A model generated the notes under the pieces. It did not search any database. It was not told the origin of the DNA and saw nothing but the letters and a program-made list of their open reading frames with translations. Both the position numbers and the translations under genes were made by a program. DNA of 64,000 bases, taken from NCBI GenBank assembly GCA_964016885.1, contig OZ024745.1, positions 26,412,001 through 26,476,000 on the forward strand, read 5' to 3'. Each line of letters opens with the position of its first letter. The first letter of the stretch is position 1. Of this stretch, positions 1,126-60,853 are shown piece after piece. This DNA is from Eledone cirrhosa (Eukaryota).

Positions 1126-1256
1126 TCCTCTGATGAAGAGTTCCGTGTCCGCCGCTGGCTTTATCAAGATCAATAGATGGTACTCGATAGTCGACTACTT
1201 AGATCGATTTTGCGTTTGCTTTGTTTTTTTGGACAACGAAACTGTACTGTAAGGAA
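1126..1256 (+). ncRNA. Hammerhead-like motif with long stem II insert (degenerate)
   Basis: ttcct-CTGATGA-...gtcc...ggac..-GAAAC-tgtact-GTA-aggaa; stem I is ttcct/aggaa. Confidence 0.4.
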
Positions 1257-1371
1257 GATATGACTTTTTACACCCTAGTGCTGTTAAATATACCTTCCAT
1301 GATTCTCTTCAATGGGTAATAATACCTTACCGGTGCCACTAGAGTAAGGTAATTATTTAACTTATAAATGG

Positions 1372-1500
1372 GGCCCTAACAGGTACTACTGTTCCAGGCC
1401 AGAGCAGACCTGGGAGTGATAACAACTAAGGAGTAACTCCACATTCCACACAGCTCATGAACATCCCACTGGATGCAGTTTAATGCCATACCCAGAACAT
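1372..1500 (-). mobile_element. Dispersed SINE-like repeat fragment
   Basis: GC-richer block ending 'gcagtttaatgccatacccagaac'; this end is locally duplicated at ~1576-1600 between microsatellites. Confidence 0.45.
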
Positions 1501-1917
1501 ACACACACACACATGCACACATATGTACATACATACATATATATATATATATATATATATATATATATATATATATGCAATTTAATGTCATACCCAGGAC
1601 ACACACGCACACGCATATGTACACACACACACACACACACATATATATATATATATATATATATATATATATATATATATATATATATATATATATATTG
1701 GAAAATGTGTGGTATTATTGGTACAGTTAGGTATATTTGAAAAAAAGGAAAAGAATGATTTCACTTGTAGTGTTAAAAAATGTTATAATATAATATTATG
1801 AGTTGGTAGATCCAGTAAGTTCATTGTTAACTTCGGTGGGAAGATTTTTAAACTTGGTTAACTTGGGTTGGAGAACTTTCTCGCATTCGTCTGTCTGTGG
1901 CGATTGTCAACATTTCT

Positions 1918-1967
1918 AAAATTAGAACTGGCTGATATATATATATATATCAGCCAGTTCTAATTTT
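1918..1967. repeat. Perfect 50-bp palindrome centred on (AT)8
   Basis: aaaattagaactggctg-(at)8-cagccagttctaatttt. Confidence 0.9.
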
Positions 1968-3308
1968 AATTATCTTTTCATTTTTCAGTCCCGTTATGTG
2001 TTTTTATTGTCATTTTTTCTCACCGTTTTTTTATGTTGAGTACAACCCTTACTACCGAAATTCAAGCCACGACGCAGAATACGCAACTGAAGACCGGAAA
2101 TATGGGTTTGTTTCGTTGGACTTGTTTATTTGCTCCATCCTGTCAGAATGTTTTATTGAAAACATGACTGGTCTTTTTAAAGATATTTCATATTTCCTAA
2201 AAACTAAATTTTGTTTTTTTCGGATATTTCTTATTAGTGTTTATGTAAAGTCGGAACAAATGTTAACGTGGGGTGCAGCGAGATGTCTGACTAAGAGAAG
2301 AAATAACATTACAAAAACTATGATACTCAATATAAATACTGACATGACGTCACAAAAAAACAAACACTGATTAGAAAAAGACAGAAAATAAACTATATTT
2401 AACTATAGATGATAATAGCCTCAGTCTTATGTCCGAAAAAGATGATGTCCGTTACATAAATAACAGCAATAACAACAACATTGTATACACGAACGTCGTT
2501 CGCCAATATATCCAATATATAAGGTTTTGACGTAGCGAAGGGAAAGAAGAAAACAGACTCGTATTCAAAAGGATTGTTTCACCTTGCTCGAATATATATC
2601 TGGTATCCGGCAAGGAGGAAACTAATTTATCTTTGTCGCATATAAGGAGGTCATTTTCTAGGCCTTCAAAAATGAATTGAAAAATGTTCTAATCTTGAGT
2701 AAAACTTTAAGCATAGAACATTGTAAAGCTAATGGGGTCGCCGGCCTGAATTTCGGAAGCGAGATTGAAACGAAAAGACAAGCAGAAAGATTACGTGAAA
2801 CAACCGTCCACAAGCTTTTACTCCAGTAAAAGGGGAAGTGAATACGGAGGCAAAACATATGCTATGATCCCCCCTCCCTCCCACCACCACACACACACAC
2901 TCCGAGTTATAATTGACTTTGTGAAACGCTATTGGAAGGTAATAAGGTCCAGGCAATAAAACATGAGGTGGCCGGGAGGGGTTTGGACACGCAACTATTC
3001 ATTATCTCGCCTCCCCCCACAACGTACCTGATGGTCATTCCACAATTCTGATCCGTTGCGGATTCAAAAGCTAAAAAAACTTGCGTTACGGACGAAAAAC
3101 ACTAATTGTTGCACTTGTCGCAGCAAAAATCCAGGCATCAGCTTTTTGTTCTGATGAGTAGAAAACATATTTGAGTAACGAGCTTAGGCTACTATTGTTG
3201 TAGCAACACCAATGTCATTTCCGATGGTAACCAGAAAATTGACTTCCTCCTGGGTTCTTGAAGCGGAAGATGTTGAGATACCTTATACTATTCCCGAGGG
3301 GAAAGATG

Positions 3309-3463
3309 TTAAAAGTTCTCCTTCAAATAATAACATCCCTTAAAAGTTCTCCTTCAAATAGTAACATCCCTTAAAAGTTCTCCTTCAAATAGTAACATCC
3401 CTTAAAAGTTCTCCTTCAAATAGTAACACCCCTTAAAAGTTCTCCTTCAAATAGTAACATCCC
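3309..3463. repeat. 31-bp minisatellite, 5 copies
   Basis: Unit ttaaaagttctccttcaaatagtaacatccc at 3309, 3340, 3371, 3402 and 3433. Confidence 0.95.
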
Positions 3464-4009
3464 ATTAAAATTAAACGGAGACTGAAGACTGTTATAGATT
3501 AGAAAGTAAAAGACGGAAGATGAATAATTCCACCGTACCACACAAAAAGAAACAGCTCTGCCAGAAAACTTTAAGGTAGACCCTAATTAGTGTCATTTTC
3601 TTAAGTATAAGTTCGTCAAAGCCAGAGACTCTGGAGGAGTCAAACCTACAGAATATATGAATGAACTCGGTTAAAGGATTACAAACGAGGGCTATCGAAG
3701 AATGGACTTTTCGTTTACCCTTTAAATACGTATATATATATATATATATATATATATATATATATATATATATATATATATATATATATGATATATGCCA
3801 ATAATTAAATATTTCTATCCAGAAGACGCGGGTGCTTTTGCGGATAATGTCAACGGATCAATGCTTAAGGAGGATTTCGGTGATTTCCAAGATGTATACA
3901 TTTCAAGGTGTCCCAGCAGGAATATATGTGTACCATGAAAGTGTAAACTGTTGTTTTTTGTTCCGTCTTACTTTACACACATTTTCATTCTATTATTTCT
4001 AACTTAATG

Positions 4010-4226
4010 TTGGATTGGTAAAATCGGTAGAGCGTCGGACAAAATGCTTTACGGCGTTTAATTATGGCCCTTTACATACTGAGTTCATATCCCGCCGAGG
4101 TTAACTTGTTGTCTCATCCTGACAGGATCGATAAAATAAAGCACCAGTAATACACTGGGTTCCATTTAATCCACTTTCCACTCTCCTTCAAATTGCTGGC
4201 CTTTTGCCTAAAGTAGAAACAATAAT
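4010..4226 (+). mobile_element. tRNA-derived SINE, older long-tail variant
   Basis: ggattggtaaaatcggtagagcgtcggac...gagttcatatcccgccgagg...gataaaataaagcaccag...gcctaaagtagaaacaat. Confidence 0.85.
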
Positions 4227-58649: not shown

Positions 58650-58990
58650 ACTCTTTCAATCATTTACCTGTTCCAGCCATCCGGCTGAGGCCATGCTGGG
58701 GCACCGCCCTTGTAGCTACACATTCTATCTCTACCCTGTGTAAGAGGGAGTTCGTTGCTGCTGCTCTTAGGTTACCTTCGTACCATGCTGTGGGCTCATC
58801 CGGGATCCTGGAAAGTAGAGTGTCAAGTTGTTTCTTGAAAACATCCATGTCCTCAACATGCAGGTCTCTGACATTTTTTGGCAGCTTCTTGAAGAGTTGA
58901 GAGCCTTTGAACCCTAGGCTATTGCAATATCTACTCCTTATTCTAGATGTGGAAGTCGTGAACTTTCTCACCACACAGTGACGTCCTGTT
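58650..58990 (-). pseudogene. CR1-like LINE 3' fragment (ORF2 end plus 3' UTR)
   Basis: RYCNSLGFKGSQLFKKLPKNVRDL...DVFKKQLDTLLSRIPDEP...TNSL fits the 'lfN.LP..v.....FK..LD' C-terminus of CR1/L2-group ORF2; 3' UTR shared with the 55130 stub. Confidence 0.75.
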
Positions 58991-59795
58991 TGTGGGTTGG
59001 TCCAGCTTTCAATATCAAAGGATTTTCCATATGTATATTACAGCGTATCTCTCACGTTTTCGTTCCAAGGAGTAGAGTTTCTGTTCTATCTATCTATCTA
59101 TCTATTATATATATATATATATATATATATATATATATGTATATATATATATATATATATATATATATATATACAGAGAGAGAGAGAGAGAGACACACAC
59201 ACACACACACACACGCACACACACACACACACACACACACACACGCACACACACACACACACACACACACACACACACACACACACACACACACACACAC
59301 ACACACACACACACATATATATATATATATATATATATATATATATTGAGTGAGTATGAAAGACCAAAGGTCATTATTGAAAATCTCTGGATTTCGCAAA
59401 ATACATAATATTTTTTATTGGAGAAGGTAAGACATTTTTCCGCAAAGATTTGATTGCACTGTTTTGTTTCCACTTATGTATTTTTTGAAGATGTTATTTA
59501 ATCATTATAAAAATTAAATTATAGCATTCTATATGTGGCAACCAATATTTTTAGATCCAGTCTAACACTGTATATATATACATAATGCCAATCATTGTAA
59601 GTTTGAATCTAATTGACATTCAAAAACATATATATAGGAATAAGGTAAGCCCAAATCATAGTAGATTCAAATATCAGCGAGAGAAAGAGAGAGAGGGAGA
59701 GGGGGGAGTGGAAGGAAATGAAACATGGATTGCAGGTTAAAATATAGTCTAGATAGATGTGAAACAAATCGAGAATGTAGATTATGCAACACTCA

Positions 59796-60258
59796 AATGA
59801 TTTAGAAGTCGATCTTAAATAGGAACAATAACATTAAGAAAGACATGAACGACTCTACAATACTTTGTTTTGAAAATTTTGAAAGTAGGTTTATAAGTAT
59901 GAATTTTCATAAGATTTTCGTAGTTGTCTCTGTGGCCTAGCGGTAGGTACTAGAGACGATGGAGATTCTGACCTTGGGTTCAATCCTAGTCAAGAGGTTC
60001 ATGTAACCTTTTGCAATTTTTACTTTACAACCCATAGGAAAAAACTGAAAAGGTTTACCGGGAACCCTACCCCCGACCAGTATCGCACTTCAGACCAGGA
60101 TCACCACCGTCTATGATTCCTCTAATTAGGCAGCTACAAAAGTATAATGAAAATTGATAATTATAAACCTACTTTCAAAATCAAAGTTAAAAAGATTTGG
60201 TGTCGTTCATGGCTTTCCTAGAGCTATTAGTAATATTTAGGGTCGACTTCTGGTCATT
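59796..60258. mobile_element. Fold-back element with ~115-bp diverged inverted arms enclosing a tRNA-like A/B-box
   Basis: Arms at 59796-59910 and 60146-60258; inside TGGCCTAGCGG ... GGGTTCAATCC (59933-59986). Confidence 0.55.
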
Positions 60259-60367
60259 ATTGAAATCTCTGGATTTCGCAAAATACATAACATTTTTTAT
60301 TGGAGAAGGTAGTTATTTTTCCACAAAAATGTTATTGTACTGTTTTGTTTCCACTTATGTATATTTA

Positions 60368-60472
60368 GAGTATCGGTAGAGGGTCGGACGCCATGCTTTG
60401 ACGTATAGAGTTACGGCCCTTGCCATTCTGAGTTCAAATCCCGCCGAGGTTAACTTTGTCTTTCATCCTTAT
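60368..60472 (+). mobile_element. Truncated tRNA-derived SINE
   Basis: gtatcggtagagggtcggacgccatgctttg...aactttgtctttcatcc. Confidence 0.85.
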
Positions 60473-60569
60473 GTATAAATATATATATATATATATATAT
60501 ATATATATATATATTTATATATATATATATATATATATATATATATTTATACATACATATATATATATA

Positions 60570-60628
60570 GTTCGGATCAAACTGTCGAAACGGCCGGAGC
60601 TCAGCCGTCGGGAACCGGACACTTTTCA
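60570..60628 (+). mobile_element. Family C stub
   Basis: gtcGAAACggc cggagctca gccGTCggg, TA-flanked. Confidence 0.6.
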
Positions 60629-60661
60629 TATATATATATATATATATATATATATAACTAT

Positions 60662-60853
60662 AACGAAGGAGTTGTGGTAAGGAACCAGATGGACCATAAC
60701 GCACCAGAGTACTCAATACTTAGGGTAGTAGAGTGGGTAATAGGAAAATGTATAACCCCGACGGCAGAGCTCAAGCCGTTTCGACGGCTATTTCTAGACA
60801 GAAATAGCCGTCAAAACGGCTTGAGCTCTGCCGTCGGGTCATACATTTTCCTA
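60662..60853 (-). mobile_element. Family B fold-back element
   Basis: Same palindrome and tail; TA on both sides. Confidence 0.88.

What the first reader, a model, noticed from the sequence alone, without database searches (positions are those of the whole stretch)
1126..60853. Many unrelated short inserts in (TA)n carry minimal type-I hammerhead ribozymes, often followed by AATAAA
Seen: clear CUGANGA-stemII-GAAA(Y)-short loop-(R)UH motifs closed by stem I at 13263-13339(-), 13504-13561(+), 37517-37554(+, mirror on -), 53256-53310(+) and 53926-53976(+, mirror on -). Variant or decayed cores occur at 1126, 9661, 9910-9961(-), 10307(-), 35720(-), 40985, 52150(-), 54325(-), 55545(-) and 58228(-). 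Loop 3 is frequently palindromic (GATC, AATT, ATAT, CG), and AATAAA immediately follows or overlaps stem I in four cases. Known: minimal type-I hammerheads with a 1-2 bp stem III and palindromic loop are the hallmark of Penelope-like element pLTRs and retrozymes, and have been proposed to cleave as dimers. Inference: what looks like plain TA microsatellite desert is a dense graveyard of at least 8 distinct TA-targeting, ribozyme-bearing retroelement families that ORF-based annotation would miss.
Basis: partly seen in the sequence, partly recalled or inferred. Interest (0 to 1): 0.8.

Follow-up and report, generated by a model that had tools for sequence, protein, structure and literature searches.

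The report
Ribozyme-bearing Penelope retrotransposon ends
Most of the short inserts between the TA repeats are end fragments of Penelope-like jumping genes that carry hammerhead-ribozyme motifs (a known pairing, here at an estimated 160,000-420,000 intact motifs per genome), and many of them are likely short copies made from the capped start of the element's uncut RNA.

Summary
A structure search finds 5 intact type-I hammerheads in the window against 0.03 in shuffles. Relaxed settings add 37521 and a U3-A8 variant at 10340. Stems covary, and loop 3 is palindromic in 12 of 21 families. Sites 1126 and 9661 are not supported; 9910, 52150 and 55545 are inconclusive. The inserts are pLTR ends of Penelope-like elements (PLEs) sitting in (TA)n. 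Neptune-type parents were traced for 10307, 54325 and a tail at 55866. The 13504 family is a 2.08-kb element with no ORF. This pairing is in print, including a hammerhead-bearing, (TA)n-inserting Hydra element in Octopus, and the scan holds 401 notes with both words. Three points I did not find in print or in the scan's notes. Density is about 90 motifs per Mb. 5' ends pile up at family-specific sites rather than at the cut (9 of 324 near it), with an extra G in the one family counted (53/100 vs 6/100). Inverted arms end at two different sites (32 of 41 pairs). So the templates are likely capped, uncut, sense RNA. Cleavage is untested.

The parts
53158..53359 (+). Family A insert: pLTR end of a Hydra-type PLE. 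Intact minimal type-I hammerhead at 53256-53310, cut after 53305, AATAAA just after stem I, short 3' end at (TA)n
13404..13743 (+). Family B insert: pLTR of a 2.08-kb element with no RT ORF. Intact hammerhead at 13504-13561, long 3' end at (TA)n
13218..13366 (-). Family E insert: intact hammerhead at 13339-13263 with a long stem II; parent not found
37377..37586 (.). Family C head-to-head pair (long arm on -, short arm on +), Hydra-type parent. Hammerhead at 37517-37554 with a 2-bp stem II
53793..54110 (.). Family D head-to-head pair, intact hammerheads with cores at 53932(+) and 53887(-); arms end 142 and 61 nt past the cut; parent not found
10170..10387 (-). Family N2: 3' end of a Neptune-type PLE, intact U3-A8 hammerhead (core at 10340), with a short inverted piece
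52288..52500 (-). Second N2 copy; stem I weakened
54197..54446 (-). Family N1: 3' end of a Neptune-type PLE, 97-98% identical to parents. Hammerhead-like fold with U3-A8 and A13C
55866..55974 (-). Family N3: tail of a Neptune-type PLE, downstream of its U3-A8 hammerhead (the ribozyme is not in this copy)
11..738 (+). Family H1 fragments (11-264 and 442-738, split by a SINE-like repeat): pLTR of a Hydra-type PLE; hammerhead with U4A and a 4-5 bp stem III
52543..53045 (-). H1 copy with its hammerhead and long 3' end
55013..55110 (.). Short H1 inverted insert; further H1 scraps at 4719-4799, 10749-10832 and 58102-58145
35618..35753 (-). Family F copy, decayed first box; relatives are intact with a 4-bp stem III; parent ORF not found
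39551..39778 (+).
40917..41063 (+). Family N copy (core at 40986), decayed; relatives form a minimal hammerhead with a CG loop
58187..58290 (-). Decayed relative of family C
60655..60853 (.). Family M head-to-head pair. Both arms begin inside stem II, so the first box is absent; longer copies elsewhere show a U3-A8 hammerhead with a 5-bp stem III. Further M copies near 17530, 35469-35552, 38899-39088 and 55660-55824
9862..10045 (-). Family G repeat ending at (TA)n; first box and stem II present, second box non-canonical; ribozyme status inconclusive
9323..9751 (.). Family R: PLE-like inverted pair with two 3' ends but no conserved hammerhead at 9661

Best explanation
Most of these inserts are the pseudo-LTR ends of several families of Penelope-like retrotransposons (Hydra-type, Neptune-type and one non-coding family) that sit in (TA)n and carry type-I hammerhead motifs, and many are likely short cDNAs copied from the capped 5' end of uncut element RNA. 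Steps: (1, inferred) a Pol II promoter in the pLTR starts a capped RNA at, or up to about 120 nt before, the ribozyme, or inside it in family M. (2, known for an Anolis PLE; matching ends shown here) the protein nicks AT-rich DNA and primes reverse transcription at one of two internal sites: about 15-60 or about 90-200 nt past the ribozyme's cut position, the far site lying just before the ORF. (3, inferred) RT reads through the uncut hammerhead to the cap, adds a base opposite the cap, and often stops, leaving a 60-350 nt insert. Longer copies would need a jump or a read-through template. (4, inferred) two cDNAs, primed on opposite strands from the two start sites, join head to head, giving inverted pairs with one short and one long arm. 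(5, untested) the ribozyme is under selection in the active lineages and would cut only as a dimer or with protein help; most genomic copies are dead passengers.
For: PARENTS. N2 has a full element (L186) with a 938-aa RT plus GIY-YIG frame between two pLTRs, each carrying the hammerhead. N1 window copy is 97-98% identical to 3' ends of GIY-YIG elements. H1 has a full element (L182). A and C lie about 1.1 kb and 0.25 kb behind Hydra-type ORF ends. G000 has 10,596 first-look GIY-YIG candidates. SELECTION ON THE FOLD. In a neighbouring family chosen by its tail only (48 rows), stem II pairs read A-U 22 / G-C 21 and U-A 24 / C-G 18, and core positions are at least 98% conserved except N7. 5' ENDS. 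9 of 324 copies begin within -5..+6 of the cut, against 33 of 64 (F) at -46..-36 and 17 of 60 (H1) at -47..-38, the first base of stem I (hand tally). EXTRA G. In H1, copies with a non-native base before that site number 2,210, G in 53 of the 100 listed. At a control position 3 nt further in there are 601, G in 6 of 100. Fisher p 7e-14. An extra G at full-length L1 5' junctions is read as the cap (PMC11702581, one passage). ARMS. They differ by at least 40 nt in 32 of 41 head-to-head pairs. LITERATURE. Two internal RT starts, both strands nicked and extended, and ribozyme mutants still inserting (PMC11167929).
Against: No RNA evidence was obtained, so start sites, caps and cleavage are not shown. 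The G count is one family, from hand counts of the first 100 listed matches; I did not tally how many G-bearing copies could be a subfamily with a native G (those printed have unrelated upstream DNA). About 19 of 30 unselected H1 copies run on past the hot spot, so stopping there is not the rule in every family. The arm test is weaker in unselected DNA: 7 of 13 pairs differ by 40 nt or more, 3 score 'same end' (probably internal AT runs), 1 differs by 16-39 nt and 2 are unresolved; at least 5 of the 41 pairs came from queries of that shape. No RT parent was found for D, E, F, I or M. Within A and B there is no double-sided stem change, only wobble changes. The minimum-energy monomer fold is not the hammerhead for B, C, D, H1 or N1. 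Pfam finds nothing in the two H1 ORF pieces, and RVT_1 is under its cut-off for the Neptune-type ORFs.
Confidence: 0.8

Rival explanations
1. Same elements, but the short copies are ordinary 5' truncations: RT stalls or folds back at RNA hairpins (stem I, stem II or the 5' hairpins of A and B), and head-to-head pairs arise by self-priming, perhaps on an antisense template, as proposed for rotifer PLEs.
For: The hot spots lie at the base of stem I (F, H1), in stem II (M), or at the base of a long hairpin (A, B). Self-priming on antisense RNA was proposed in PMC3846280 (passages).
Against: A stall predicts no base preference, yet G rises from 6% to 53% over 3 nt in H1. A fold-back gives arms that share one 3' end, but the arms mostly end at two different fixed sites. 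Several pairs carry a whole ribozyme in both arms.
Confidence: 0.2
2. The inserts are non-LTR retrozymes: 150-450 nt units that self-cleave from tandem arrays, circularise and are copied by a PLE RT.
For: Type-I motifs with palindromic loop 3, and no ORF parent found for B, D, E, F, I or M. Family B occurs as a head-to-tail 2,077-bp tandem. A 2026 preprint derives retrozymes from pLTRs.
Against: No short head-to-tail array was seen in the window or in the flanks printed. The six traced families continue into RT ORFs. B's unit is 2.08 kb, collinear in 30 of 30 loci. Junctions are not permuted around the cut site.
Confidence: 0.08
3. The ribozyme cuts the transcript first, and the cut RNA is the template, so copies begin at the cleavage site.
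For: This role was proposed in PMC4209133; the fold is under selection.
Against: Only 9 of 324 copies begin near the cut. In Anolis, ribozyme-dead RNA inserts equally well and no reads end at the cut (PMC11167929).
Confidence: 0.07
4. Chance motifs in AT-rich DNA.
For: The wide descriptor gives 0-5 hits per shuffled 400 kb.
Against: 5 vs 0.03 in the window; 37 vs about 1 in 400 kb; palindromic loops and covariation that were not asked for.
Confidence: 0.01

Closest known systems
[quoted passage not shown]
   Same: Type-I topology, short stem I, extra nucleotide before stem II, palindromic loop 3, U3-A8 variant, mostly single motifs from truncated PLEs, opposite-strand pairs 100-700 bp apart.
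   Different: Estimated 1.6-4.2e5 intact motifs here, against about 9,000 in Xenopus tropicalis and about 2,000 plus 1,300 in Schistosoma in that paper. U4A and A13C family-wide cores and 4-5 bp stems III are not in the parts I read.
Hydra-clade PLEs, including Hydra-1_Obim of Octopus bimaculoides (Craig et al. 2021, PMC8557442; section 11, passages, supplement rows)
   Same: RWK/RWR, DKT, CxCX5C linker, CxxC and CxH in the nuclease, short elements, (TA)n targets, hammerhead present. The supplement lists a hammerhead for Hydra-1_Obim.
   Different: H1 and A differ from Hydra-1_Obim by eye in N-terminus and ribozyme; C's N-terminus was not read, and its ribozyme differs. No tree was built. That paper gives a 30-40 bp tail; here the two ends differ by about 60-140 nt.
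Neptune/Nematis-type PLEs
   Same: C-terminal GIY-YIG, CX2-5CxxC linker, DKG motif, two pLTRs (N1, N2).
   Different: N1, N2 and N3 use U3-A8 cores; placement in Neptune versus Nematis was not tested by phylogeny.
Anolis Poseidon PAc mechanism (Frangieh et al. 2024, PMC11167929; main text read)
   Same: Two internal RT start sites that define the tail; AT-rich nicks on both strands; uncut RNA as template.
   Different: That text does not describe cap-terminated short copies, an extra G, or short+long pairing of inverted arms. PAc starts RT inside the ORF; here the far start lies just before the ORF (H1, A).
Non-LTR retrozymes (Cervera and de la Pena 2020, PMC7229834, passages; Li et al. 2026 preprint 10.64898/2026.07.22.740005, first fifth)
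   Same: Type-I hammerhead, non-coding, probably moved by PLE proteins (family B).
   Different: Not 150-450 nt tandem arrays; circular RNA not tested. The axolotl figure of up to 120,000 motifs (section title) is the largest count I saw.
Minus-strand strong-stop DNA of LTR elements and retroviruses (recalled, from no call)
   Same: A short cDNA primed near the RNA 5' end that runs to the cap and must jump to continue.
   Different: Primed by nicked target DNA, not a tRNA, and integrated as it stands. This is an analogy, not membership.

Membership tests
Type-I hammerhead ribozyme | CUGANGA, GAAA and UH boxes joined by stems I-III, open at stem I | tested here: met
   5 sites; 37521 and 10340 under relaxed settings
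Type-I hammerhead ribozyme | Compensatory changes in stems with an invariant core | tested here: met
   two-sided changes at stem II.2, II.5, II.6 and I.2 in a neighbouring family; none within A or B alone; C3-G8 in 23 and U3-A8 in 2 of 25 families (the descriptor asked for these cores)
Type-I hammerhead ribozyme | Self-cleavage | not testable with these tools
   needs a bench assay or RNA-end data
Type-I hammerhead ribozyme | Match to Rfam hammerhead models | tested here: not met
   none. The motifs have non-standard stem lengths, which lowers 'canonical', not 'works like'
Minimal PLE hammerhead | Stem III of 1-2 bp with a palindromic loop able to pair between two molecules | tested here: met
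   12 of 21 perfect palindromes; predicted homodimers pair through loop 3 in A, C, I, N1 and N2. Not met by F, H1 and M, which have longer stems III
EN+ Penelope-like elements | ORF with RT and C-terminal GIY-YIG-type nuclease linked to the ribozyme-bearing end | tested here: met
   N1, N2, N3, H1, A, C. Not found for D, E, F, I, M; absent from B
EN+ Penelope-like elements | pLTRs in partial tandem, inverted 5'-truncated copy, optional tail | tested here: met
   L186, L182, L061, L211; 41 head-to-head pairs
Hydra clade | RWK and DKT motifs | tested here: met
   H1: RWR variant and DKT; A: RWK and DKT. Not seen for C in the open stretches scanned
Hydra clade | CxCX5C linker, CxH at the nuclease end, (TA)n targets | tested here: met
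   H1, A, C; insert ends
Hydra clade / Neptune clade | Placement in an RT tree with reference elements | not tested
   no reference sequences were available to the tools; assignment rests on motifs
Neptune/Nematis type | CX2-5CxxC linker and DKG | tested here: met
   L186, L183
Non-LTR retrozymes | Head-to-tail tandem units of 150-450 nt, each with a hammerhead | tested here: not met
   none in the window or in the flanks printed; B's tandem unit is 2,077 bp. No genome-wide array search was made
Non-LTR retrozymes | Circular RNA | not testable with these tools
   needs RNA

The most novel reading that the evidence does not exclude
This genome records a step of PLE replication that I did not find described. 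RT starts internally near the 5' end of a capped sense mRNA, runs through the uncut hammerhead to the cap, and integrates the 'strong-stop' cDNA as it is. Two such cDNAs from the two start sites fuse into the short+long inverted pair. That would explain solo pLTRs, head-to-head inversions and the flood of lone hammerheads in one model, replace the antisense self-priming idea, and let PLE promoters be read off the genome. It has left one of the densest ribozyme loads seen in an animal (about 90 per Mb), including family-wide U4A and U3-A8/A13C cores and a 2-kb non-coding passenger family.
Probability: 0.55. Interest if true: 0.68.

Novelty: new member of a known kind. Interest (0 to 1): 0.5.

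Why it matters
The pairing of hammerheads with PLE ends in (TA)n is known, so the finding as stated is mostly confirmation. What would matter is the mechanism. How PLEs make pLTRs, tails and inverted copies, and what their ribozyme is for, are stated as open in PMC8557442 and PMC11167929. Tens of thousands of insertion junctions per family make these questions testable by counting. If the extra G is a cap trace, the template is capped, sense and uncut, and the ribozyme must act at another step. Annotation also gains: TA-rich 'desert' hides many PLE families, and the long inverted pairs score as microRNA-like hairpins (below Rfam's cut-off).

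Tried and rejected
Rfam: no hammerhead or twister match (one search showed 150 of 403 rows, almost all simple-repeat or hairpin matches and none a ribozyme). L199 looked like a Poseidon-type parent of family A but is an A insert joined by an inversion to an unrelated element; rejected. 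The L188 Neptune ORF is not the parent of C; C's own Hydra-type ORF lies upstream. No parent ORF appeared in 30 loci each for D (shared upstream up to 626 nt) and E (about 150 nt), nor for F, I or M in the pool. No PLE-like ORF was found in B's unit against two local protein sets; its coding capacity was not tested against outside libraries. One Pfam accession recalled for the PLE thumb is not in the library. No RNA holder was listed; three contig sets laid on H1 show presence only. Fold-back at stem I as the source of inversions: I looked in the junctions by eye and saw no clear case. The base before the 5' hot spot was counted for H1 only; for the other families it is left open. The systematic sample stayed at 40 blocks (400 kb), hence the wide interval; loops under 4 nt were outside the descriptor, so the density is a lower bound. 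Literature searches. None listed a paper on cap-G or cap-terminated PLE copies, but subscription journals, Repbase notes and bioRxiv supplements were not visible. An Octopus vulgaris repeat paper has 0 hits for 'ribozyme' in its main text.

Full report
SETTING. The window is AT-rich animal DNA with 190 (TA)5+ runs and no long host ORF. It lies at G000:C5:26,412,001-26,476,000 in a 3.0-Gb assembly. I take the host for an octopod cephalopod from recalled repeat features; this was not tested.

OBSERVATION. A type-I descriptor (CUGANGA, stem II, GAAA, loop of 4-12 nt, UH, stem I of at least 4 bp) finds five motifs, with cores at 13331(-), 13508(+), 53261(+), 53887(-) and 53932(+), against 0.03 (max 1) in 200 shuffles that keep simple repeats in place. 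With an uninterrupted stem II the count is 4 vs 0.02, and 0 if 4 such pairs are demanded: most of these stems II carry a mismatch after three pairs, C.C in 48 of 48 rows of one family. 37521(+) needs a 2-bp stem II. 10340(-) is an intact U3-A8 variant, a covariation already reported in Schistosoma PLEs (PMC4209133). Two features the descriptor did not ask for hold up: loop 3 is a perfect palindrome in 12 of 21 families (0.55 expected), and AATAAA follows the cut within 22 nt in 9 of 25 families (background 2.5%). Covariation was tested on copies chosen by their tail. A neighbouring family shows several two-sided changes with an invariant core; A and B show only wobble changes.

SCALE. In 40 fixed 10-kb blocks from 26 contigs, 37 intact motifs were found against about 1 shuffled. 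That is 92 per Mb (block bootstrap 52-140), or 2.8e5 for the genome (1.6-4.2e5); a wider descriptor gives 47 against 0-5. The blocks were placed by hand, not in proportion to contig length, but the 20 mostly large-contig and the 20 smaller-contig blocks gave 18 and 19. The 200 kb flanking the window gave 19, so the window is typical. The 1.8-Mb pool, enriched by my searches, holds 401 distinct motif contexts in 56 clusters, 25 with two or more copies. First-look candidates: A 221, B 3,986, C 1,432, D 1,076, E 1,565. One 37-nt stretch of H1 has 22,461 exact matches, control 0.

PARENTS. A GIY-YIG search gave 10,596 candidates. Their 3' ends match window 54197-54446 (N1, 97-98%), 10170-10354 and 52288-52500 (N2), and 55866-55941 (N3). 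L186 is a complete N2 element: 938-aa frame, RVT_1 E 2e-6 (28 bits, cut-off 29.6), GIY-YIG over its cut-off, and a hammerhead in both pLTRs. N1 and N2 have the CX2-5CxxC linker and DKG. L182 is a complete, frameshifted H1 element with RWR, DKT, CxCX5C and CxH. A and C lead upstream into ORFs 32-42% identical to it, with RWK and DKT seen for A. [quoted passage not shown] Family B is different: 30 of 30 loci found with its body are collinear with one 2.08-kb unit, in pLTR-body-pLTR form with inversions and no PLE ORF. I read it as non-autonomous. D, E, F, I and M have the same anatomy but no parent was found.

MECHANISM, 3' ENDS. Each family ends at (TA)n at two fixed distances from the cut, for example A about 55 and 150, B 50 and 195, C 36 and 100, H1 21-29 and 115, I 43 and 134 nt. 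In H1 and A the far end lies about 45-65 nt before the ATG. This matches the two internal RT start sites of the Anolis element (PMC11167929). In head-to-head pairs the arms differ by at least 40 nt in 32 of 41; 3 score alike, 2 differ by 16-39 nt, and 4 are unresolved. In unselected DNA alone it is 7 of 13. I infer two cDNAs primed on opposite strands from the two starts. Because the arms are on opposite strands, a transcript of such a pair would form a long hairpin, not a dimer ribozyme.

MECHANISM, 5' ENDS. In copies not selected for their family, 9 of 324 begin within -5..+6 of the cut. Instead they cluster: F 33 of 64 at -46..-36, H1 17 of 60 at -47..-38, M 46 of the 62 that reach upstream at -46..-35, and N2 6 of 7 such at -73..-68 (tallied by hand from the printed lists; the M references were only about 76% identical to each other, and family I's cluster at -95 is the limit of its reference). 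For F and H1 the cluster is the first base of stem I; for M it lies inside stem II, so most M copies lack the first box. By eye the sites are an A after pyrimidines, like an initiator element (consensus recalled), and many junctions show one extra G. Genome-wide in H1, 2,210 exact copies have a non-native base just before this A, G in 53, A in 24 and C in 23 of the first 100 listed. Three bases further in, where the native base is the same, there are 601, with G in 6 of 100. Odds ratio 18, p 7e-14. An extra G marks the cap at full-length L1 junctions (PMC11702581, one passage). So the template was likely a capped sense RNA that still held its whole ribozyme. Limits: one family, hand counts, no RNA, and about 19 of 30 unselected H1 copies extend past the site, which needs a template jump or read-through RNA.

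THE RIBOZYME'S ROLE. It is selected but was not used to make these 5' ends. Minimal motifs cut poorly even as dimers (PMC4209133), and the Anolis motif needs the element's protein (PMC11167929). Predicted homodimers gain 4-13 kcal/mol and pair through loop 3 in A, C, I, N1 and N2; the monomer minimum-energy fold shows stems I and II for A, N2 and I, stem I for E, and not the hammerhead for B, C, D, H1 or N1. My guess (inference, about 0.4) is that it acts in the downstream pLTR to end or circularise the RNA, in step with the AATAAA beside stem I. Activity of the U4A and A13C cores is unknown.

VERDICT. It is a set of new members of a known kind, at unusual density, with junction statistics that point to an undescribed step of PLE replication. 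The scan has 401 earlier notes holding 'hammerhead' and 'Penelope' in at least 29 genomes, none in this genome, and none matched my cap look-up. Interest 0.5. Papers seen: PMC4209133 parts 1-2 of 4; PMC11167929 parts 1-2 of 4; PMC8557442 section 11, passages and supplement rows; PMC3846280, PMC7229834, PMC13282606 and PMC11702581 passages; the 2026 preprint part 1 of 5.

Noticed in passing
window about 41150-51700: About 10 kb satellite of short degenerate units (seen); no hammerhead hits inside.
   Followed up: no
window 62252-63343 and 63400-64000 (+): Two tandem 3' fragments of a non-LTR element (363-aa frame, weak zf-RVT E 0.004) beside (TAA)n runs; restriction-like nuclease and R4/Dong type are recalled, not tested.
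   Followed up: partly
window 258-448, 5370-5560, 8734-8911, 18685-18831, 19414-19630, 29864-30041, 38341-38423, 56543-56707, 60369-60471: About ten copies of one SINE-like family; one splits the H1 fragment at 264-442.
   Followed up: no
window 9323-9751: Family R has PLE-like two-end, inverted anatomy without a hammerhead. It may be a Naiad-type end (Octopus Naiads are listed with a half core in PMC8557442's supplement); no Rfam ribozyme match.
   Followed up: partly
window 15490-15556 and 60575-60630: Family S, a relative of M with the same long stem III, also cut off inside stem II.
   Followed up: partly
window 54494-54860: Another TA-flanked inverted repeat family with copies elsewhere; ribozyme not identified.
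   Followed up: no
window 58660-59087 (-): 3' fragment of another retroelement ORF (125-aa frame; copy in L193).
   Followed up: no
L061 (G000:C2:92427500-92437000, -): Family B's 2.08-kb unit holds an internal 61-160 nt duplication and GC-rich stretches but no frame over 126 aa; conserved at 80-94% across 30 loci. Its purpose is unexplained.
   Followed up: partly
L197, L202, L205: A Poseidon-type PLE family (RVT_1 59 bits, GIY-YIG) also exists in the genome; no end of it was matched in the window.
   Followed up: partly
families A and B, 5' hot spot: A 15-18 bp hairpin begins exactly at the fixed 5' end of A and B copies (read); role unknown.
   Followed up: no
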